From: an uncultured Oligoflexia bacterium
GTDB taxonomy: Bacteria; Bdellovibrionota_B; Oligoflexia; Silvanigrellales; Silvanigrellaceae
Assembly (NCBI GenBank): GCA_964435255.1
Contig: CAYSZE010000248.1
Location: forward strand, 1 to 40,178
DNA length: 40,178 nt
Direction of reading: 5' to 3'
A program made the position numbers and the translations under genes. The notes beneath the pieces are model-generated. The model was not told the origin of the DNA and searched no databases. It saw nothing but the letters and a program-made list of their open reading frames with translations. This document shows positions 6,581 to 34,470 of the stretch, piece after piece; the stretch's first letter is position 1; each line of letters starts with the position of its first letter.

Positions 6581-7792
6581 TCATCCCTCATGAAAATCGA
6601 GGGATGAATAATTTGTCTCTCTCAGAGAAAATAAAGAGAACACTCCTATAATAAAAATAATTAAAGCTGACATGACTAGTCCTATCCAAATTTGCTGAAA
6701 TTGACTTGCCATCCACGGCACAAATGCATTCATAATAACCAATGAACAACGCGCTAAATTTGAAATTACTGATGAAGCAATATTTCTTTGGTTTGTACCA
6801 AAACTTTCCGCAGCAAATACCATAAAAATACCAGCGTAGCCACTTGCTAAACCAATTAAAAATAGAATGACATAATACAATTGTATAGTAAGAAGATGCC
6901 CCATTGAAAACATACAAATTGCTAACAACATAATAAACAATGCACTAAATATTGATTTTTTCCTACTTGCTGTTAAGCGAGCGATATAAGGAAAAAAGTA
7001 AGAACCTACAAAAGAACCAACAAAATAAACAGCTAAAGAAAATCCTTGGCTGATAGTTTCTTTAATGCCAACCGATTTTGCCACTTCTGGTGCAAAATTA
7101 ACAAAGAAAGCCATGAACCAGAAAGGAACTATAGAAAGTAAAAAAGCAAGTAATTTTGTAAATGAACTTTTATTTAGTAGTAATAATTTTAAACTACCTC
7201 TTACCATATGCGTTTTACTTTTCACATTTTGAAAAATGATAGAATCAGCAACAGAAATTCTGGCAAGTAAAAGAATAAGACCAGCTACGCCGCCAACTAT
7301 AAATAAAATTTTCCAATGAAAAAAGGATCCAATAAATGCAGCGAGCATACCACCCACTACACCAGAAGAATAAATAACACCAGCAGCTCTTGCTCGCGCT
7401 TTTGTACTTAGCAACTCGCTTAATAAAGTGATAGAAGCTGCAAATTCACCTGCTAAACCAACGCCAGCAATAAAACGTAGTAATGCAAACATACTCACGT
7501 TGGTTGCAAACGTATTTAAAATAATTGCCACGGAATAAATGAATATACCAAGCCTAACAGCAGACATACGCCCAAATTTATCGCCCCAAATACCACTTAA
7601 TATACCACCAACGACAACACCAATTGCTTGCGCATTAAACATTAAAGCACTCACTTTAAGGTAATCTTGTTCAGCAACACCAAGAGATTCCAAGACAGGA
7701 ATTCTAACAACGGCAAAAATTGTTAAATCGAAAAAGTCAATCATGTAACCAATTGCTAGAATAAAAATAATAAAATTAGTATTGTTTTTCAT
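6581..7792 (-). CDS. Major facilitator superfamily transporter, last gene of the men operon
   Basis: About 12 TM segments, motif A GIWGDKFGRMSAV, RFIAGVGLAGE, acidic TM1 (DFFD). 11 nt downstream of menE. Confidence 0.9.
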   Translation of the reverse strand: MKNNTNFIIFILAIGYMIDFFDLTIFAVVRIPVLESLGVAEQDYLKVSALMFNAQAIGVVVGGILSGIWGDKFGRMSAVRLGIFIYSVAIILNTFATNVSMFALLRFIAGVGLAGEFAASITLLSELLSTKARARAAGVIYSSGVVGGMLAAFIGSFFHWKILFIVGGVAGLILLLARISVADSIIFQNVKSKTHMVRGSLKLLLLNKSSFTKLLAFLLSIVPFWFMAFFVNFAPEVAKSVGIKETISQGFSLAVYFVGSFVGSYFFPYIARLTASRKKSIFSALFIMLLAICMFSMGHLLTIQLYYVILFLIGLASGYAGIFMVFAAESFGTNQRNIASSVISNLARCSLVIMNAFVPWMASQFQQIWIGLVMSALIIFIIGVFSLFSLRETNYSSLDFHEG

Positions 7793-7803
7793 TTAAATAT
7801 TTC

Positions 7804-9006
7804 CTAATTTGCAATATAAATTCCTTCACCGATACAAGCTGAAAGTTGTTTTTTTTTCAATTTACCTAATGCTGTTTTTGGCAAATGATCGATAAAATAA
7901 AGTTTTTTAATTCTTTCAAATGGATAAACTCTATTATTAAATTCTAATATCAAATTTGCTATCACATCATTTTTGAGATTACTATTTTTATTTTCTAAAA
8001 CAACCGCTATAATATTTTGTAAGCGTACATCAAATTCACTTATAATAGCTGCTTTATTATTAAAATTGTGCTTTAGTAAAATGTCATTAAATAAATGCTC
8101 TAATTTATTTAATGAGACACTTTCACCACTTATTTTAACAACATCATCACTTCTTCCAATGATTTGTAAATACTGCCCTTGAATATAGCCTAAGTCTGAA
8201 GTTAACAGACAACTTAATAACTGCCCAGCAATTTCAGTTTTAATTTTTGGATCAACAAAATAATTTCGTTTTTTTTCAAACTTAATATAACCTGTACATA
8301 ATGAATTACCTTGCAGTATAATACGGTTTTCATTATTTAAATAGACTTGCATATGACTAAGAATTTTTAATTTAGGAAATTCATTAAAATTTTCCCATAC
8401 TGTCTTCATCTCTGATGTTGCAATTTGTGATGCTGTTTCTGACATCCCATAACTTAAAAGAATGGGCCAATTTAGTTTTTTAGCTGCTTGATACACAGCA
8501 AAAGATAAACTACCCCCACCTACAATTACGGCTCTTAAATACTTGGGTGCACATAATTTACGAATAACTATGTCATAAATTTGAGTAGGAACTAATGAAG
8601 TGATAGTTATTTGTTTACATTCTAATAAAGAAACAAATTCAGGAGCATCCCATTTTGTTTGGTATTGAGAACAGTCAATAAGTTTTGCTGCACTTAAATA
8701 AGCTCTTGCATAGGTTGCAAGTCCGCCAATATGGAAAATAGGTAACGGGTTCATAATAATATCATTAGATGATATTTCTAAATGCTTATTTACAGAAGCA
8801 GCACAATTTAAAATAGCTTGCTTATTTAACGCTACGAGTTTTAAATCGCTCGGATCAAGTGCTGTTGAACCAGATGTCGCTAAAAACACATGTTCACTTA
8901 AATCATATTTTTCTATAATTTCTTGTATATTTATTTCATACTGTGGCATAGCTCTAGAATTTAAAAATATATATGACTGTTTCGATAACCAATCAATGGA
9001 ATTCAT
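7804..9006 (-). CDS. menE: o-succinylbenzoate-CoA ligase (short MenE)
   Basis: ANL motifs TSGST, LPIFHIGG, YGMSET, TSDLG, GRSDDVVKISGE, LPKTALGKL. ATG at 9006 forms an ATGA overlap with the menC stop. men context. Confidence 0.85.
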   Translation of the reverse strand: MNSIDWLSKQSYIFLNSRAMPQYEINIQEIIEKYDLSEHVFLATSGSTALDPSDLKLVALNKQAILNCAASVNKHLEISSNDIIMNPLPIFHIGGLATYARAYLSAAKLIDCSQYQTKWDAPEFVSLLECKQITITSLVPTQIYDIVIRKLCAPKYLRAVIVGGGSLSFAVYQAAKKLNWPILLSYGMSETASQIATSEMKTVWENFNEFPKLKILSHMQVYLNNENRIILQGNSLCTGYIKFEKKRNYFVDPKIKTEIAGQLLSCLLTSDLGYIQGQYLQIIGRSDDVVKISGESVSLNKLEHLFNDILLKHNFNNKAAIISEFDVRLQNIIAVVLENKNSNLKNDVIANLILEFNNRVYPFERIKKLYFIDHLPKTALGKLKKKQLSACIGEGIYIAN

Positions 9007-10022
9007 TTTAGTTCCTTCCAATGTTCATTTTTTAAAAGTGAATTAAAACCAAAACCAGTCCCTTCTAGTGAAGGTAACAGTCGTGTATTTTGAATTGTTA
9101 AAGTTTCTGCATATTCATTCATTTCATAGAACTGATGTGTTAGAAGACCACAACTCATTTTATCTGCTAAACATCCCTGATTAAACAGCCCCGCTTCATA
9201 TAAAGCAGAAAGCTGACCCAAAGGATGATCCATATAACTTGAAATAACAACAGGTACACTAAATTTTTTATCTATAAAATTTTGAATAGCTGGTTTAAGA
9301 ATAAAATAATCGACATTTAAGTCGACATTATTAGAATAATCTTCTAAATTAAGCCTATCAATAGCTAAAGATAACAAAGAAAATTTAGATTTATATTTTT
9401 CTCTATCTTTAAAAAATAAAAAATAAGGATCTTCTATAAAATCAATAATATTTAAAAAATTATAAAATTTATTTAAAAAATTTTCTAATAGGTCACTGTC
9501 TAAACTATTATTAAAGTCAATTCTTATCTTTAATTGTGAACTTTTTATATTGTTAAAGAACCTGGTTAATTTTTCAGTATTTTCTATTTCTCCTTTGCTT
9601 AGTTTAATTTTAATTAATTCAAAACCATCATTCTTAATTTTTTCTATCTTTTTTAAATTTAATAAACTTATATCAACTTCGGTATAGTGGTTTTTAGGAA
9701 AAGTAAAATTACTGAAAATATTTAAATTCTTAGCTCGATAACAAGCATCAATATATGCAAAATAAATAGTTTTATAAGTGTGAATATTAAATTTAGAATT
9801 TTTAATATTCTCTAACAATAAACGCACATCTAAGTCACCAAGTTCGGGCCATGAAAATAAATCAGAATAACCATTCCCAATATTTTTAAACTCAATATTT
9901 ATTAAATAACCATTTCTATTTGCCTTTATACTTTTTGCATTTAAAGCTTTAAAAGGTTTTAGCTGGTATTCAGAATACATAATTTTATTTATATTGTTGC
10001 AAATTATTTTAAAATTATTCAT
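9003..10022 (-). CDS. menC: o-succinylbenzoate synthase (divergent MenC, enolase superfamily)
   Basis: KIK catalytic motif, metal ligands RIDFN, IEDP and AID, then LKP and GTGFG. men context. Confidence 0.8.
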   Translation of the reverse strand: MNNFKIICNNINKIMYSEYQLKPFKALNAKSIKANRNGYLINIEFKNIGNGYSDLFSWPELGDLDVRLLLENIKNSKFNIHTYKTIYFAYIDACYRAKNLNIFSNFTFPKNHYTEVDISLLNLKKIEKIKNDGFELIKIKLSKGEIENTEKLTRFFNNIKSSQLKIRIDFNNSLDSDLLENFLNKFYNFLNIIDFIEDPYFLFFKDREKYKSKFSLLSLAIDRLNLEDYSNNVDLNVDYFILKPAIQNFIDKKFSVPVVISSYMDHPLGQLSALYEAGLFNQGCLADKMSCGLLTHQFYEMNEYAETLTIQNTRLLPSLEGTGFGFNSLLKNEHWKELK

Positions 10023-10848
10023 ATGAGTAGAAATTTAATTCAATATTTTTTTCTTGATCGCTATTTGCATTTTCATCATAATTTTGCTCATAAATTTGCA
10101 TATTAAAGTTACTTTTAATAGCAAAGAAAATAGTTGATGTCGTCCCATAATCTTTTCCTGGGATAAATAAAGATGATAAAAATACTTCTCTATCAGGCCC
10201 TAAACCAGTATTGGGTAATTTATCTAAAGAAAAAGTCTTTGTGTTCATCATTTCTCTTCGAAAATATTGCCAATAATCACACAAATTTAATGTAGATTTA
10301 TAGTTATTAATTAGATATTCTTTAAATTTATTTTTATTTTCTATAATTTTAGGCCAGTTTGAATCGATTTCAGCATTACTTAATCCAAAAACTTTTTTCT
10401 CAGTAGTATCACAATGAAATAACAACTGAGAAGTTTTATTTTTACTATTATAATAATGTACTGTCTGTGAGTCAGAAATAAGTAAATTAAAAAAATTATA
10501 ACTAGCAGAAATATTTTTTAATTTATCTAAAAAATTTACACAATTATCATTTGAATTCAAAAAATTTGGAATAATTTCTCCTCTTGAGCGTAAATCTTTG
10601 TTATAAGATTTCATATCTCTAATATTAGTAATTATACCCCACTTTGAATTTAATTTATTTTGACAAGCAAACCAAGTTCCTTTTTGAGATTCATCTCTAG
10701 GGCCAAATATTTCATTACCAAATGAAGAATATGAATTATTCCATCCTTCAATCATGGAGGACTTTCTAAAGCGATATTCATCTCTATTAGAAATTAATAC
10801 AATTGGGTAATTTTCAATTTGATTGACAAATAAAAATAGAGTACACAC
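10015..10848 (-). CDS. NRDE/TANGO2 family protein (Ntn-hydrolase-like, N-terminal Cys)
   Basis: Begins MCTLF; SNRDEY, GTWF, ITNIR, SRGEII, YNFFNLL, GLSNA, WPK, LPNTG, LSSLFI, YGTTSTI all match the NRDE/TANGO2 family pattern. Confidence 0.9.
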   Translation of the reverse strand: MCTLFLFVNQIENYPIVLISNRDEYRFRKSSMIEGWNNSYSSFGNEIFGPRDESQKGTWFACQNKLNSKWGIITNIRDMKSYNKDLRSRGEIIPNFLNSNDNCVNFLDKLKNISASYNFFNLLISDSQTVHYYNSKNKTSQLLFHCDTTEKKVFGLSNAEIDSNWPKIIENKNKFKEYLINNYKSTLNLCDYWQYFRREMMNTKTFSLDKLPNTGLGPDREVFLSSLFIPGKDYGTTSTIFFAIKSNFNMQIYEQNYDENANSDQEKNIELNFYSYE

Positions 10849-10853
10849 AAAAA

Positions 10854-11768
10854 TTATCCTATTAAAATTCCTATACCTAAAAGAAGACCAAATAGTATTT
10901 GGACTAATGCAGACATTCCTAAGTATTTATTAAATACTTTTGAAGGAGTATGAATAAAAATCCCACGTGTTATTTTAAAAGCTAAAGGAATTGTTAACAA
11001 TGGTAATACAGCACACCATATATTAATTTCAAAAAACCAATAAAAATTAACAAAATAGGTTAAGATAAATAAAAACATTATTTCTAATTTAGCAAATTTT
11101 GCACCAAATCTTGCAGCTAAGGTCATTTTACCGACTTTTTTATCTTCAATATAATCTCTATAATTGTTGATAGAAATAAGAACAGTTGCAAGTAAACCTA
11201 CTTCAATTCCAGCGATTAAAACAGACTTATTTAAAAATCCAGTTTGTAAATAAAATACCCCACAAACTGCGACCAAACCGAAGAAAAAAATAACAAAAAT
11301 TTCTCCTAGTCCTTTATATGCCAGTGGATATGGACCGCCAGTATATAAATAACCAAATAATAAAGAAACGCAGCCAATAATAAAAATAGGTAAGCCAGCA
11401 TGAATAACTAAAGGAATTGCAAATAAAGCTGCAATAAAAAAACTAACAAATCCTCCAAAGATAACTTGTTTTTCAGTTAAAAGTCCACTTTGTGTGACCC
11501 TTTTAGGCCCAAGTCTTCTTTCATTATCAGCACCTTTTTTAAAATCGAGCGCATCATTTATTAAATTTGTCCCAATTTGAATAAATATGGTCGAAAACAA
11601 AGCTAAAATACTAAAATAATACACAAAATGGTGCTGTTCTGCTCGTCCATAATGCAAAGCTAAAACGGAAGCAACAAAAATGGGAGTGAAAGCAGCTGAT
11701 AACGTTTTAGGCCGCGCAGCAAGTAACCACGGGATAATATGACTGCTGTCTTTAATTCCTTCTGTCAT
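10854..11768 (-). CDS. menA: 1,4-dihydroxy-2-naphthoate polyprenyltransferase
   Basis: AARPKTL, QIGTNLINDALDFKKGAD, YTGGPYPLAYKGLGE, NNYRD...D...GKMTLA. Confidence 0.95.
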   Translation of the reverse strand: MTEGIKDSSHIIPWLLAARPKTLSAAFTPIFVASVLALHYGRAEQHHFVYYFSILALFSTIFIQIGTNLINDALDFKKGADNERRLGPKRVTQSGLLTEKQVIFGGFVSFFIAALFAIPLVIHAGLPIFIIGCVSLLFGYLYTGGPYPLAYKGLGEIFVIFFFGLVAVCGVFYLQTGFLNKSVLIAGIEVGLLATVLISINNYRDYIEDKKVGKMTLAARFGAKFAKLEIMFLFILTYFVNFYWFFEINIWCAVLPLLTIPLAFKITRGIFIHTPSKVFNKYLGMSALVQILFGLLLGIGILIG

Positions 11769-11774
11769 AAACCC

Positions 11775-12599
11775 TCAAGGAAGCCGATCAAATTTTGAAA
11801 AGTCTGGTTTTCTTTTTTCCACAAAAGCATTTTTACCTTCTTTAGCTTCTTCACTTAAATAATAAAGTAACGTCGCATTTCCTGCTAAATCAAGCAAACC
11901 TATTTGACCATCACAATCTGCATTTAAAGCTGCTTTAAGACAACGTAAAGCTAAGGGAGAATGTTCAAGCATTTCTCGGCACCATTTTAGTGTTTCTGTT
12001 TCAAGTTCATCAACAGGAACCACGTGATTGACCAATCCCATTTCAAGAGCTTGCTCTGCATTGTATTGACGACATAAATACCAAATTTCCCGCGCTTTCT
12101 TTTGCCCTACTATTCGTGCCAAATAACTACTGCCAAGCCCACCATCAAATGAACCCACTTTTGGTCCAGTTTGACCAAATTTGGCATTATCACCAGCAAT
12201 AGTCAGATCGCAGACTACGTGTAGCACGTGTCCACCGCCAATGGCGTATCCAGCAACCATAGCAACAACAGGTTTTGGCATAGATCGGATTGCCTTTTGC
12301 ACGTCTAAAATATTTAAACGCGGCATACCATCCTGCCCAATATAGCCACCATGCCCACGGACTTTTTGATCGCCACCTGAACAAAAAGCTTCTTTACCTT
12401 CACCAGTTAAAATAATAACTCCAACTTTTTGATCATCTCTACAAATTTCAAAGGCTTTTAGTAATTCAGTCACTGTTTCTGGTCTAAATGCATTCCTAAC
12501 ATGTGGACGATTTATTGTAATTTTAGCAATACCATCTTCTGTTCTTTCTAATTTAATATCCCCAAAATCATGCATTTTGTTCCAAATATTCATACTCAT
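11775..12599 (-). CDS. menB: 1,4-dihydroxy-2-naphthoyl-CoA synthase
   Basis: [51 protein letters not shown]. Confidence 0.97.
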
Positions 12600-19786: not shown

Positions 19787-20746
19787 TTGCAGACAAAAGA
19801 AACAAAATTTAATGAAATTTATTTGGCACTGCATCGACCAAACAATTGGAATGGTAAAACTATTTTATATGTCCATGGAGGGCCAGGCAGCCATTCTAAA
19901 GATTTTGAAGACGGATTATATGATTTTAAAGAATTTAGAGAAACTGAATATGCTTATATTACTTATGATCAAAGAGGTTCTGGACGATCTGAAATTTCTA
20001 AACAAAATTTAACTCCATTATCACATAAAAATAACATTGAAGATCTTGTCATACTAATAGCAAATGCAGCTCAAATTTTTAATCTAGAAAAAATAGATCT
20101 TCTTTATGGTCATAGCTATGGAGCAAAACTTGTTTATGATACATTATGGGCTCATTCAGAAATAAACATAAAATATCTGCTTGCAGGAATTAGTCTTTAT
20201 CCAAATGATGCGTTTAATACTTCTCTTTATTTAGATTTATTTTTACTAAAAAGCAATCAACCAAAAGAATTTAAAGAAGCTTTAAAAATTATTGCAGACC
20301 AAAACAAAGAACCATATTTGTATTCTCCACAAATAAGAAAATTGTTTCATTCTCTCGAAAAAAGGCAATTAGACAGACAAAAATTTTATTGGGCCAATGA
20401 AAATGCACGAAATTGGTGGAACACAGTGAATGAAAAAAGTCGTGTAAAAGATAATGATCAAGCATACTTTAAAATTGTTGAAACTTTTAATGATGAAGTC
20501 TTTAACTCTGGATCATATGATCCTAGCCAATTATCGCAAAGTGGAAAATATATCATTGGCTTCCATGATGTTCTCATGAATGGTTCAACAACCTTTAGTA
20601 CCAAAGAAAATAATATCATTAAATTTATGTCCTCTTCTCATTACCCACACTTTTAAGAACCTGAATTATTTATACAAACAATTAGAAATATAATTACAGA
20701 TGAAAAAAATAACACTTACAATTATAAAAATACTGCTAACATTTAA
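19787..20746 (+). pseudogene. Alpha/beta hydrolase (proline iminopeptidase-like) with an in-frame TAA at 20654-20656
   Basis: HGGPG, YDQRGSGRS, nucleophile GHSYG, GFHD, SHYPHF*EPELFIQTIRNII. The canonical C-terminal helix continues in frame past the stop to 20746. TTG start after GGAAGGA. Confidence 0.7.
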
Positions 20747-24020: not shown

Positions 24021-24500
24021 TTGAAATTATTTGATACTCTCAAAGAGAAAATTCCACCTGAAAAGCTTTTTAAATTAATACGCTTTTGGCCGCCTTACCT
24101 AGGTGCAGGAATTAAAGTGACTAATGTGAGTCCAGATATTCTTAAACTTGAAGTTGAAATGGATCTAACATGGTACAATAGAAATTTCGTAGGCACACAC
24201 TTTGGTGGCTCTTTATTTGCTATGACCGATCCTTTTTATATGCTAATGTTAATTAAAAATTTAGGTAGCCAATATATCATTTGGGATAAGTCAGCAAAAA
24301 TAGAATTTATAAAACCTGCTAGGGGAAAAGTAAAAGCGCATTTTGAATTTACTAAAGATGAAATAGATGAAATTAAGTATAATTGTGATAATAAAAAGAA
24401 ACATATTTTTACTAAAGAAATTTTTATTTTTGATGAAGTAGGAGAACTAATTACTAAAGTTGAGAAAACATTATACGTTAAAAAATCTAATTCACTTTAG
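24021..24500 (+). CDS. Hotdog-fold PaaI-like thioesterase (DUF4442-like)
   Basis: WPPYLGAGI, RNFVGTHFGGSLFAMTDPFYMLML, IWDKSAKIEFIKP. Confidence 0.82.
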   Translation: MKLFDTLKEKIPPEKLFKLIRFWPPYLGAGIKVTNVSPDILKLEVEMDLTWYNRNFVGTHFGGSLFAMTDPFYMLMLIKNLGSQYIIWDKSAKIEFIKPARGKVKAHFEFTKDEIDEIKYNCDNKKKHIFTKEIFIFDEVGELITKVEKTLYVKKSNSL

Positions 24501-31790: not shown

Positions 31791-33407
31791 TTAAAGTGTT
31801 TTTATTATATTATTAAATTTACTTGTTTGAAATGAACAGGGTTTTATTTCAATAACTTGTCTTAAATTTTTCTTTGTTTCAAAATTTAATTTTTCTAAAT
31901 CATTCTTATTTTCCACCAAAAAGTAATCAATCCCCCACATCTTTGCCCAATGGAAAAAACTAATAGAGTGTATATTTTTACAAAAGTCAGCAGAATCACC
32001 ATTTAGTACTCCATTAAATATCTGTCCCCCTGAATTATTAATTATTATAATAATAAAAGATAAATTTTTTCGATACTCTGTTAGCCAGAGACTTTGTAAA
32101 TCATAGAGAGAAGTTAAATCACCAAAAATGCCGATATTCAATTTATCAGTTTCTGCACTTCCTAAAAAGGTAGAAATTTGTCCATCAATACCATTTAACC
32201 CTCTAGATGCTTCTATTTGAAAAAATTTATTCTCATAAGAAGCTGCAAAATCCCAGGTCCTTATTGGCAAACTATTTCCTATATATATTTTGCTATTTTT
32301 AGGTATTTTTTTGGATAATGTATTAAAATAAGACTGTTCAGATAATTCTAAAGTAGTAAACAATTTGTTTACTTGTTCCAGAGAATTTTTACACTTAAAT
32401 AAAAGATTTTGAGCACTAGTCTCTTGTCCTCCAATATTTTTAGAAAATAAATCTATTAAAAATGAGAAAAATAACTCATAATTAATTTGTATATGTTTAG
32501 CATTAACAGCACCTGCAAAATGAGATTCAGAGATTGATAATACTTTTAAATTTATTTTTTCTTCAGCTATATCGCGCCATAATTTATGCGTTGGTGTATT
32601 GCCAATTTTTAAAACACTATCAAATTGACAATTTAACAATTCACTATCTCTCCACAAATTTTCAGCAAACATTATTTTTAGATCATTTAATTCTTCGCAT
32701 TCTCTAATATTTGATGTTGATTCAATATATACAGGCCTTTTGAACAACTGCAAAAATTTAATAATAAGATAATTATGCTTTAACTGATTTTTAGAAACAA
32801 TTACCAACATATTTTTTGAGTTGAAACAGAATTCTTTAAATATCTCTATATGTTCATTATTATATTTTAGTTGCTTAAATGGTTGTTCTTTTTTGAAATT
32901 ACTAACATCAATATTACAAATTTTATTACATTGCAAAGGAAGATCAAAACAAGGATTAATATGAATTGGTTTGTCTTTTTTATAATACGAAAGATCTATT
33001 TCATCCGTTGCTTCAATATCAATACAAGCAGTAACATATTTGCCATATATATCTTTTTGATCTGCTGTTTGTGGCGCTCCAGATCCTCTTTGTCTTTTAG
33101 GCCGATCGGCAGTTACTGCGACTAATGGCAAATCGGAGTAATAAGCTTCCATAATTGCAGGAAATAATTCCGCTACCGCCGTACCAGAAGTTACTATAAC
33201 CGCAACAGGCTGTTCTAACGCTTTTATTCTTCCCAATGCATAGAATGCCAAACTTCTTTCGTCAAAATGGCTATACACTTTTATGCCATTTATATTTAAT
33301 AAGACTTCAATTAATGGCACATTTCTTGCACCAGCACAAATGTAAAACTCTCTTACTCCCCATTCTAAAAGTTCTTTAATAATTTTATAAGAGAATTCAA
33401 AATTCAT
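31791..33407 (-). CDS. menD: SEPHCHC synthase (ThDP-dependent)
   Basis: CAGARNVPL, DERSLAFYALG, TSGTAVAE, TADRP, GNSLPIR, RGLNGIDG, GDLTSLYD...NNSGGQIF. Confidence 0.94.
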   Translation of the reverse strand: MNFEFSYKIIKELLEWGVREFYICAGARNVPLIEVLLNINGIKVYSHFDERSLAFYALGRIKALEQPVAVIVTSGTAVAELFPAIMEAYYSDLPLVAVTADRPKRQRGSGAPQTADQKDIYGKYVTACIDIEATDEIDLSYYKKDKPIHINPCFDLPLQCNKICNIDVSNFKKEQPFKQLKYNNEHIEIFKEFCFNSKNMLVIVSKNQLKHNYLIIKFLQLFKRPVYIESTSNIRECEELNDLKIMFAENLWRDSELLNCQFDSVLKIGNTPTHKLWRDIAEEKINLKVLSISESHFAGAVNAKHIQINYELFFSFLIDLFSKNIGGQETSAQNLLFKCKNSLEQVNKLFTTLELSEQSYFNTLSKKIPKNSKIYIGNSLPIRTWDFAASYENKFFQIEASRGLNGIDGQISTFLGSAETDKLNIGIFGDLTSLYDLQSLWLTEYRKNLSFIIIIINNSGGQIFNGVLNGDSADFCKNIHSISFFHWAKMWGIDYFLVENKNDLEKLNFETKKNLRQVIEIKPCSFQTSKFNNIIKTL

Positions 33408-34470
33408 GACTTAATCCCAAATTTTTAATAATAGAATTTATTTTTGAAAGGATTTCATCTAGTTCGTTTAGAAAATCACTTTCTTTTACTACACCACCAC
33501 CTGCTGTAATTTGTATATCAGTTCTATTCCACTGCATACCTCTAATTAAGCATACACATAATGAGTCATTTTTATTCAAAAGAACACCAAATGGAGCTGC
33601 AAATAATTTTCTATATTTAGAATTTAGTTTTTGTTCTTCTTGCCAAAATTGAGAATTACTTGGATAAATTCCGACTGCTGGAGTAGGGTGCAAACATTTT
33701 AGTAAACTTAAAAATTCAAATTGTGAAAATAAATGCAATATAATATCTGTTTTTAGATGCAATAAATGCGGTAGCTCAAAAACCATTGTAGGACTCATTT
33801 TTAAATGGCCAAAACTAGCCAAAGATTTATTTATCCCTTCAATAACATAATTATGTTCATTTAAAATTTTTGGATCCTTAGAAAAAACTTCTTTATTAAC
33901 ATTTTTGTCATTTTTTATTGTACCAGCTAAGGCGATAGTATGTACTAACTTTTTATTTTGTTTAAATACAAGTTCAGGTGTCGCCCCAATAAAACCTTCT
34001 TTTTCATCCCAAAAACCATATACATACGTATTATAATTTAAAGATTTATTTATTAAATTTTTTAATAAATATATTTTATTTTCATTATTAATTTCAGCTT
34101 TACCAATTAAAGAAGAAAATGGCACACCTTTATTTATTGAAGAGTCACTAATTAAATTTTTAATATATCTAAATTGATTTTCATAATTATCTTGCAAAAA
34201 ACAATCCCAATTAATTTTAGGGGAATTATCATTATAATCACTAATTATTTCCAAAAAATATTTTGTAGTAAATTCAAAAAATTTTTTACCTTTATAAAAA
34301 CACTTTTGTCTTGAAAAATAAAAATCGTTAAAATAAAAATATGGATATTCTAAATTTTCACTATCAGAATGCTTTGTTATCGAATCATAAACACACCAAA
34401 TTTTATTCTCAATAGGTGAAGTAATAAATATTCCAGACTCTAAAAAATTATTTAGATTAAAAATTTCCAT
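33397..34470 (-). CDS. menF: Isochorismate synthase (short MenF)
   Basis: GATPE, ALAGT, EHNYV, LHPTPAV, IRG, AGGGVV. Overlaps the menD start. Confidence 0.87.
   Translation of the reverse strand: MEIFNLNNFLESGIFITSPIENKIWCVYDSITKHSDSENLEYPYFYFNDFYFSRQKCFYKGKKFFEFTTKYFLEIISDYNDNSPKINWDCFLQDNYENQFRYIKNLISDSSINKGVPFSSLIGKAEINNENKIYLLKNLINKSLNYNTYVYGFWDEKEGFIGATPELVFKQNKKLVHTIALAGTIKNDKNVNKEVFSKDPKILNEHNYVIEGINKSLASFGHLKMSPTMVFELPHLLHLKTDIILHLFSQFEFLSLLKCLHPTPAVGIYPSNSQFWQEEQKLNSKYRKLFAAPFGVLLNKNDSLCVCLIRGMQWNRTDIQITAGGGVVKESDFLNELDEILSKINSIIKNLGLSHEF

What the first reader, a model, noticed from the sequence alone, without database searches (positions are those of the whole stretch)
10015..10848. 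NRDE/TANGO2 Ntn-hydrolase-like gene embedded in the menaquinone operon: candidate new DHNA-CoA thioesterase or CoA-ester handler
Seen: the NRDE gene sits 5 nt after the menA stop, uses the AGGA at the end of menA as its RBS, and overlaps the menC start by 8 nt, so it is coupled into menB-menA-NRDE-menC-menE-MFS. Neither menI nor menH is present in either men block. Known: MenB makes DHNA-CoA but MenA needs free DHNA, so a thioesterase is required. NRDE/TANGO2 proteins have an Ntn-hydrolase-like fold with Cys at position 2, no agreed catalytic function, and have been linked both to CoA/acyl-CoA metabolism and to heme trafficking. Inference: this protein may be a non-orthologous MenI replacement or a CoA-ester editing enzyme, which would give a biochemical handle on an enigmatic family with a human disease gene.
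Basis: partly seen in the sequence, partly recalled or inferred. Interest (0 to 1): 0.82.

Follow-up and report, generated by a model that had tools for sequence, protein, structure and literature searches.

The report
TANGO2-family gene inside a menaquinone operon
A bacterial relative of the human disease protein TANGO2 sits inside the vitamin K2 (menaquinone) operon of one bacterial group, but it likely moved in only once and close relatives keep the pathway genes without it, so it is more likely a co-expressed CoA-ester enzyme than the pathway's missing step.

Summary
Confirmed: 10015-10848 (-) encodes an intact 277-aa TANGO2/NRDE protein (PF05742, E 6e-45; model matches human TANGO2, Z 31.9) with Cys2, NRDE, Asn158 and Lys167, packed into menB-menA-NRDE-menC-menE-MFS. 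The organism is Silvanigrella-like. The arrangement holds in all 9 of 13 genus genomes that carry the gene, under purifying selection. The MenI-replacement reading is weak. Two trees point to one gain and one loss. G003 and G010 keep menB/A/C/E/D/H with no NRDE found. 0 of 80 outside menB loci carry NRDE, and 0 of 88 outside NRDE loci have a men neighbour. There is no anticorrelation with PaaI/YdiI-type thioesterases: 24 of 50 menB genomes have neither. This genome has seven unlinked hotdog thioesterase genes. menH is a stand-alone gene in 12 of 12 sister genomes, so that gap is likely an assembly gap. Best reading: a resident Cys-Ntn CoA-ester/amide hydrolase relocated into the operon and likely made at low level (TTG/GTG start in 9 of 9). 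DHNA-CoA remains a cheap substrate to test (about 15% that it is a true MenI). The scan reported this before on another genome (e1-2511978).

The parts
10015..10848 (-). TANGO2/NRDE-family protein, 277 aa, GTG start; Cys2, N21-R22-D23-E24, R28, R89, N158, K167, Y234
   Evidence: PF05742 E 6e-45; alignment; model pLDDT 94.5 matches human TANGO2, TM 0.81-0.83, Z 31.9, rmsd 2.0 over 256 residues
10849..10860 (-). menA-NRDE junction: AGGA, menA stop TAA, 5-nt spacer; likely ribosome-binding site and translational coupling
   Evidence: sequence; gap of 5-7 nt in 9 of 9 genus genomes
11775..12599 (-). menB, DHNA-CoA synthase
   Evidence: TIGR01929 and NF005637 over cut-off
10854..11768 (-). menA, DHNA prenyltransferase
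   Evidence: TIGR00751 over cut-off
9003..10022 (-). menC, o-succinylbenzoate synthase, Bdellovibrio type; start codon uncertain (10022 or 9980)
   Evidence: PF22015 E 7e-20; NF047905 E 3e-49, under cut-off
7804..9021 (-). menE, OSB-CoA ligase (short type)
   Evidence: TIGR01923 E 4e-33, under cut-off; synteny
6581..7792 (-). MFS transporter, best family hit aromatic acid/H+ symport (under cut-off); joined the operon at the same tree node as NRDE
   Evidence: the G003 homologue (45%) lies away from the men genes
33397..34470 (-). menF, isochorismate synthase (second men block)
   Evidence: PF00425, TIGR00543 E 5e-40
31791..33407 (-). menD, SEPHCHC synthase (second men block)
   Evidence: TIGR00173 over cut-off
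24021..24500 (+). DUF4442 hotdog-type protein; one of seven unlinked thioesterase candidates in this genome
   Evidence: PF14539 E 2.5e-20 and weak YiiD_C hit

Best explanation
This is an intact TANGO2-family gene that likely moved once into the menaquinone operon of the Silvanigrella group, where it is predicted to be a weakly translated cysteine N-terminal-nucleophile hydrolase of general CoA-ester or amide turnover, while DHNA-CoA is likely cleaved by an unlinked hotdog thioesterase. Shown here: fold, active-site residues, position, conservation, purifying selection, weak start codon, single-clade distribution. Inferred from the family: Met1 is removed, the free amine and thiol of Cys2 (with Asp23, Asn158, Lys167) attack a carbonyl of an acyl-CoA or its pantetheine arm, and the acyl-enzyme is hydrolysed. 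Inferred from trees: a resident gene of the class was inserted between menA and menC in the ancestor of ten sampled genomes, was kept because it is useful and wedged between coupled genes, and was lost again in G010.
For: menA is followed directly by menC or menE in 37 of 38 outside loci that hold both, and in G003 and G010, so NRDE is an insertion. rpoB and men-protein trees place G001, G003 (and G009 in the rpoB tree) outside a crown where 9 of 10 carry NRDE, with G010 nested inside (supports 0.92-0.97): one gain, one loss. NRDE was found in 0 of 80 outside menB loci and men genes beside 0 of 88 outside NRDE-like loci, whose neighbours are mixed. The genus NRDE clade groups with NRDEs of its own class that sit in unrelated contexts, in genomes such as G015, G019 and G036 with no menB found. 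24 of 50 menB genomes have neither TANGO2 nor TIGR00369, and all 6 with a strong full-length TANGO2 also have TIGR00369. G000 has seven hotdog genes; homologues of two of them occur in G003 and G010. menF, menD and menH are scattered in this genus, so an unlinked thioesterase is unremarkable. dN/dS 0.12-0.19 in three close pairs. Human TANGO2 binds C16/C18 acyl-CoA through NRDE (PMC11867700, passages).
Against: The gene keeps its exact place in 9 of 10 crown genomes although the proteins have diverged to 45-53% identity and the flanks and other men genes are reshuffled. No PaaI/YdiI-type menI passes the cut-off in 0 of 13 genus genomes, and the hotdog candidates match the Staphylococcus MenI model only weakly (E 8e-7 to 4e-3), so the real thioesterase is unidentified. 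G010 is weak as a counter-example: its menA has a one-base frameshift, either an assembly error or decay of the pathway. G003 is a 1.8-Mb reduced genome. No TANGO2 protein has a measured catalytic activity in the papers read.
Confidence: 0.55

Rival explanations
1. Accessory pathway enzyme: the protein was recruited as a low-abundance proofreading or CoA-recycling hydrolase for men intermediates (DHNA-CoA, OSB-CoA or dead-end aryl-CoA esters), helpful but dispensable, possibly together with the MFS that joined the operon at the same node and could move DHNA.
For: Stable position over deep divergence; conserved non-ATG start in 9 of 9 genus genomes against ATG in 81 of 88 outside loci, which fits a sub-stoichiometric role; long branch and 24 clade-specific conserved columns; the two CoA-linked steps MenE and MenB are in the same operon; the related Cys-Ntn enzyme isopenicillin N acyltransferase (Z 15.9) forms a phenylacetyl-enzyme from phenylacetyl-CoA (PMC2692852, passages).
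Against: One evolutionary event, so no independent recurrence; no case among 80 outside menB loci; G010 keeps the MFS but not NRDE; clade-specific columns are expected from shared ancestry; the paper read assigns IAT thioester cleavage to Ser309, not to the N-terminal Cys.
Confidence: 0.25
2. Dedicated non-orthologous MenI: the protein is the main DHNA-CoA thioesterase of the crown Silvanigrella group and replaced a hotdog enzyme there.
For: No canonical menI in 0 of 13 genus genomes over cut-off; cultured members make MK-8 (PMC7386786, PMC10645651, passages); the step has been filled by non-homologous hotdog enzymes before (PMC5299476, passages); thioesterase-like action of TANGO2 has been proposed from docking (PMC12359130, passages).
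Against: G003 and G010 hold menB, A, C, E, D and H with neither NRDE nor canonical menI; 10 of 10 Bdellovibrionales/Parachlamydiaceae-type genomes with the same operon have neither, and G139 has no hotdog hit at all; NRDE-bearing genomes did not shed their hotdog genes; all characterised DHNA-CoA thioesterases in the papers read are hotdog-fold.
Confidence: 0.13
3. Heme-trafficking protein like Shewanella HtpA, co-expressed with quinone synthesis to serve the respiratory chain.
For: HtpA (SO0126) is a bacterial TANGO2 homologue reported to traffic heme (PMC10470608, listing and passages); cytochrome oxidase genes lie in the same window.
Against: Heme binding was non-specific in 25 crystals (PMC13044924, section read); heme phenotypes were not replicated (PMC12782551, abstract); the full catalytic set is conserved here; the oxidase genes are over 25 kb away.
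Confidence: 0.05
4. MenH substitute: the protein supplies the SHCHC synthase step that is missing from both men blocks.
For: No MenH orthologue was found in G000; in sister operons menH lies between menD and menB.
Against: A stand-alone MenH is present in 12 of 12 other genus genomes, with or without NRDE; G000 is 85.7% complete in 391 contigs.
Confidence: 0.02

Closest known systems
Human TANGO2 (PF05742; PDB 8sv7, 9bwa)
   Same: Same fold (Z 31.9, rmsd 2.0, 256 residues), Cys2, NRDE, and the Asn/Lys pair equivalent to human Asn157/Lys166.
   Different: About 20-23% identity; bacterial, encoded inside a menaquinone operon with a TTG/GTG start; substrate unknown in both.
Shewanella oneidensis HtpA (SO0126), bacterial TANGO2 homologue
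   Same: Same Pfam family in a bacterium (PMC10470608).
   Different: Reported as a heme-trafficking protein; no quinone link in that paper ('quinone' occurs 0 times). Not compared by sequence here.
MenI / DHNA-CoA thioesterases (E. coli YdiI, Listeria LMRG_02730, Synechocystis Slr0204, Staphylococcus MenI)
   Different: All hotdog fold; this protein is an alpha-beta-beta-alpha Ntn fold with no MenI family hit and does not track menI absence.
Acyl-CoA:isopenicillin N acyltransferase (PDB 2x1c-e)
   Same: Cys-Ntn fold (Z 15.5-15.9) with matching catalytic positions; uses an aromatic acyl-CoA.
   Different: Fungal, self-cleaved two-chain acyltransferase, about 9% identity; no closer than bile salt hydrolases or NAAA in the same list.
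Bdellovibrio/Parachlamydia/Verrucomicrobia-type menB-menA-menC-menE operon
   Same: Same gene order and the same short MenE and divergent MenC types.
   Different: Here NRDE is inserted between menA and menC and an MFS is appended; menF, menD and menH are split off.

Membership tests
TANGO2/NRDE (PF05742) | Full-length profile match over the curated cut-off | tested here: met
   154.8 bits against cut-off 22.6, residues 1-258
TANGO2/NRDE (PF05742) | N-terminal Cys2 and NRDE motif | tested here: met
   C2, N21-R22-D23-E24; invariant or nearly so in 16 clade and 77 outside sequences
Cysteine Ntn hydrolases | [quoted passage not shown] | tested here: met
   Model matches TANGO2, NAAA, penicillin V acylase, bile salt hydrolase and IAT; residue set per PMC13044924
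Cysteine Ntn hydrolases | Exposed N-terminal Cys and measurable hydrolase activity | not testable with these tools
   Needs mass spectrometry and an assay; not shown for any TANGO2 in the papers read
MenI DHNA-CoA thioesterases | Hotdog fold / match to MenI, PaaI or 4HBT models | tested here: not met
   0 NCBIfam families, only PF05742 in Pfam; the confident model has the TANGO2 Ntn fold
Non-orthologous MenI replacement (works-like claim) | Present where the men pathway lacks menI, absent where menI is present | tested here: not met
   G003 and G010 have neither; 24 of 50 outside menB genomes have neither, 7 have both; assemblies may be incomplete
Non-orthologous MenI replacement (works-like claim) | Recurrent linkage to men genes in independent lineages | tested here: not met
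   0 of 80 outside menB loci and 0 of 88 outside NRDE-like loci; one gain on two trees; samples, not a census
Non-orthologous MenI replacement (works-like claim) | Hydrolyses DHNA-CoA and is needed for menaquinone | not testable with these tools
   Needs assay, complementation and deletion
MenH SHCHC synthase | alpha/beta-hydrolase fold and filling a true menH gap | tested here: not met
   Different fold; menH present in 12 of 12 other genus genomes
HtpA-type heme-trafficking proteins | Specific heme binding and effect on cytochrome content | not testable with these tools
   Family-level claim is disputed

The most novel reading that the evidence does not exclude
The Silvanigrella group recruited a TANGO2-family protein as an Ntn-fold DHNA-CoA thioesterase acting through Cys2: the first non-hotdog enzyme for this step and the first defined catalytic substrate for the TANGO2 family, with the co-recruited MFS moving the freed DHNA.
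Probability: 0.15. Interest if true: 0.8.

Novelty: new member of a known kind. Interest (0 to 1): 0.35.

Why it matters
TANGO2 deficiency is a serious human disease and no catalytic substrate is agreed for the family. A bacterial member wedged between genes that make and consume aryl-CoA thioesters offers one concrete, cheap substrate (DHNA-CoA) and a ready complementation test in cultured, MK-8-making organisms. The comparative evidence lowers the odds: it is a single-clade insertion that the pathway can apparently do without. A positive assay would matter to both the TANGO2 and the vitamin K fields; a negative one would leave an ordinary operon passenger.

Tried and rejected
MenH-substitute idea: rejected after a profile of 9 operon-linked MenH proteins found orthologues in 12 of 12 sister genomes. 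Co-transfer of NRDE with the men operon: not favoured, since the NRDE clade sits among NRDEs of its own class and sister operons lack it. Expression: four RNA runs of one study hold only short contigs over the operon, two of them inside NRDE (10012-10200, 10352-10700); none listed bridges an NRDE junction by 31 letters and DNA cannot be excluded, so they show neither transcription nor an operon. Promoter and terminator scans were at chance level (38 found against 37.9 expected). A MenB-NRDE complex prediction gave no answer and is not used either way. The context of P0017, the nearest outside relative (39%), could not be found in 131 class genomes or the metagenome scan. The ESM Atlas added nothing beyond PF05742. 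An IQ-TREE run timed out; FastTree was used. Docking of DHNA-CoA was not possible. Paper searches for the link: TANGO2+menaquinone gave 3 papers, seen as listings only, none on this by title or abstract start; NRDE family protein/DUF833/NRDE domain/menaquinone, any two, gave 0; TANGO2+acyl-CoA thioesterase in bioRxiv gave 0; Silvanigrella+menaquinone gave 4, two of them read in passages on quinones only. Subscription papers and bioRxiv supplements were not searched.

Full report
What is there. The ORF at 10015-10848 on the minus strand encodes 277 aa from a GTG start, with Cys at position 2. It matches PF05742 TANGO2 at E 6e-45 and no NCBIfam family. Its only sequence hits among solved structures are human TANGO2 (E 3e-12). 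An AlphaFold2 model from a 28-row alignment is confident (pLDDT 94.5) and matches TANGO2 far above anything else (TM 0.81-0.83; Z 31.9, rmsd 2.0 over 256 residues, next Z 18.9). Cys2, N21-R22-D23-E24, R28, R89, N158, K167 and Y234 are conserved; PMC13044924 (outline and results sections 3.1-3.5 in part) names the equivalent human residues as the likely Ntn catalytic set. The neighbours are menB, menA, Bdellovibrio-type menC, menE and an MFS, with menF-menD about 19 kb away. The 5-nt gap, the AGGA and the 8-nt overlap are as described, though the menC start could also be the ATG at residue 15. The closest named relatives are from Pigmentibacter, Silvanigrella and Fluviispira at 45-53% identity. 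Cultured members of this family make MK-8 (PMC7386786 and PMC10645651, passages).

Conservation in the genus. TANGO2 was found in 9 of 13 genus genomes including this one, and in all 9 it lies between menA and menC; both metagenome loci found show the same order but are near-copies of genomes already counted. dN/dS in three close pairs is 0.12-0.19, as low as or lower than menC (0.23-0.33) and menE (0.18-0.27), so the gene is maintained. The start codon is TTG or GTG in 9 of 9 genus genomes (6 and 3), against ATG in 81 of 88 outside loci and 813 of 1007 crudely called starts in this genome. These nine share one ancestor, so this is suggestive of low, coupled translation and no more.

The four genomes without it. 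G003 (94% complete) has contiguous menB-menA-menC-menE; G010 (96%, one contig) has menB-menA-menC-menE-MFS; G001 (72%) has menB-menA followed by an unrelated gene; G009 (87%) has menD and menH but no menB found. Neither the family profile nor the protein itself finds NRDE in them. G010's menA carries a one-base frameshift next to a homopolymer, which may be an assembly error or decay. A FastTree of rpoB for 20 genomes puts G001, G003 and G009 in a sister clade (0.97) to a crown (0.92) in which 9 of 10 have NRDE, with G010 nested beside G000, G002 and G004 (0.95). A tree of concatenated MenB/A/C/E (27 loci; G008 and G009 not included) agrees that G003 and G001 are basal and G010 is nested (0.95). 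The association is therefore one gain and one loss, not nine observations.

Outside the genus. The genome scan with MenB read 3 of 64 parts of the collection and kept the best 80 of 598 hits. None of the 80 loci (up to 7 kb each side, many shorter) holds an NRDE by two profiles, while a control locus was found at E 1e-81; nor do the three same-class men operons of G027, G029 and G035. In 37 of the 38 loci with menA and menC or menE, these are adjacent, so the ancestral order has no gene there, and most of these operons have no hotdog gene either (2 of 80 by BLAST with four hotdog queries). Conversely, 88 NRDE-like loci from the own class, Bdellovibrionota, Bacteroidota, Pseudomonadota and menB-bearing genomes (1.5 kb each side; 30 of 34 Bacteroidota hits fetched; about five are divergent partial matches) gave no men neighbour, only one weak alpha/beta-hydrolase hit. 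Their neighbours are mixed: antiporters, TauE, GNATs, hydrolases, a FabH-like and an SDR gene (81 of 109 representative neighbours scanned). In a tree of 94 NRDE proteins (two thirds of the Bacteroidota loci, five divergent ORFs and short pieces left out; midpoint root) the genus clade plus P0017 sits among NRDEs of its own class (0.92-0.93), several from genomes with no menB found. Inference: a resident gene was relocated into an operon. The MFS did the same at the same node: its G003 homologue lies elsewhere.

Is there a gap to fill? For MenH, no. A profile of operon-linked MenH finds a stand-alone orthologue in 12 of 12 other genus genomes (TIGR03695 E 3e-55 to 2e-45, just under cut-off, 3 tested), with different neighbours in most. 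It is missing only from this 85.7%-complete assembly. But this genome has seven hotdog genes (four PF03061, three PF13279 with one shared, one DUF4442); the three YbgC/FadM-like ones match the Staphylococcus MenI model weakly, far under cut-off; and homologues of two of them occur in G003 and G010 (57-78% and 26-30%). [quoted passage not shown] Among 50 of the 80 menB genomes, chosen for holding men clusters, 14 have a TANGO2 hit and 19 a TIGR00369 hit; by hand count 7 have both and 24 neither, and all 6 with strong full-length TANGO2 have TIGR00369 too. Ten of ten Bdellovibrionales/Parachlamydiaceae-type genomes have neither, and G139 has no hotdog hit in three families. Completeness is not given for these genomes. 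The predicted anticorrelation is not seen.

How it likely works. From the family: Met1 is absent in human TANGO2 crystals and Cys2 is poised as in other Cys-Ntn hydrolases; human TANGO2 binds C16/C18 acyl-CoA through NRDE and showed no acyltransferase activity (PMC11867700, passages); thioester or pantetheine-amide cleavage has been proposed from docking only (PMC12359130, passages). The heme-trafficking role of bacterial HtpA (PMC10470608, passages) is disputed (PMC12782551, abstract). A Cys-Ntn enzyme can use an aromatic acyl-CoA (isopenicillin N acyltransferase, PMC2692852, passages). I therefore read this protein as a CoA-ester or amide hydrolase of general turnover that rides on the men transcript at low level (0.55). 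An accessory role on men intermediates is the main rival (0.25), a dedicated MenI is less likely (0.13), heme handling (0.05) and MenH substitution (0.02) are unlikely. Earlier scan notes place other NRDE genes beside coaB/coaC, ATP-grasp ligases and acyltransferases; these were not checked here and serve only as leads that the family's theme is CoA and acyl chemistry rather than quinones.

Verdict. A real, conserved, clade-limited insertion of a known family into a known operon. I found no paper describing it, and the scan noted it once before on another genome (e1-2511978). Interest 0.35; about 15% that it is an Ntn-fold DHNA-CoA thioesterase, which would deserve about 0.8.

Noticed in passing
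window 6581-7792 (-): The MFS after menE (best hit aromatic acid/H+ symport family, under cut-off) is in the operon in 10 of 10 crown genomes but lies elsewhere in G003; a candidate DHNA or OSB transporter.
   Followed up: partly
window 10846-10848 (-): The NRDE start is GTG or TTG in 9 of 9 genus genomes and never ATG, switching between the two weak codons; outside the genus 81 of 88 use ATG.
   Followed up: partly
L282-L293: menH is a stand-alone gene with different neighbours in most genus genomes; menD and menF are also separated in G003, G005, G009 and G010.
   Followed up: partly
L032:8768-9660 (G010): menA is split by a one-base frameshift beside a homopolymer; assembly error or pathway decay not resolved.
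   Followed up: partly
L112 (G139): A 1.3-Mb Bdellovibrionales chromosome with menB-menA-menC-menE but no hit to TANGO2, TIGR00369, PF13279 or PF03061: if complete, its DHNA-CoA thioesterase is of an unrecognised kind.
   Followed up: partly
G013-G024: menB was not found in any of 12 family members outside the genus, so the classical men operon may have entered at the base of the genus; which quinone the others make was not checked.
   Followed up: no
L031:8377-9936 (G003): A gene that looks like an ADP/ATP translocase by its N-terminal sequence (recalled, not scanned) follows menE in the 1.8-Mb genome G003, suggesting a host-associated lifestyle.
   Followed up: no
P0014 / PMC7386786: [quoted passage not shown]
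   Followed up: no
window 24021-24500 (+) and 19787-20656 (+): A DUF4442 hotdog-type gene and an alpha/beta hydrolase lie between the two men blocks; the hydrolase does not match the MenH profile.
   Followed up: partly
L113 and L115 genomes (G140, G142): Strong TIGR00369 hits lie inside open frames of about 700 aa, possibly hotdog domains fused to another protein.
   Followed up: no
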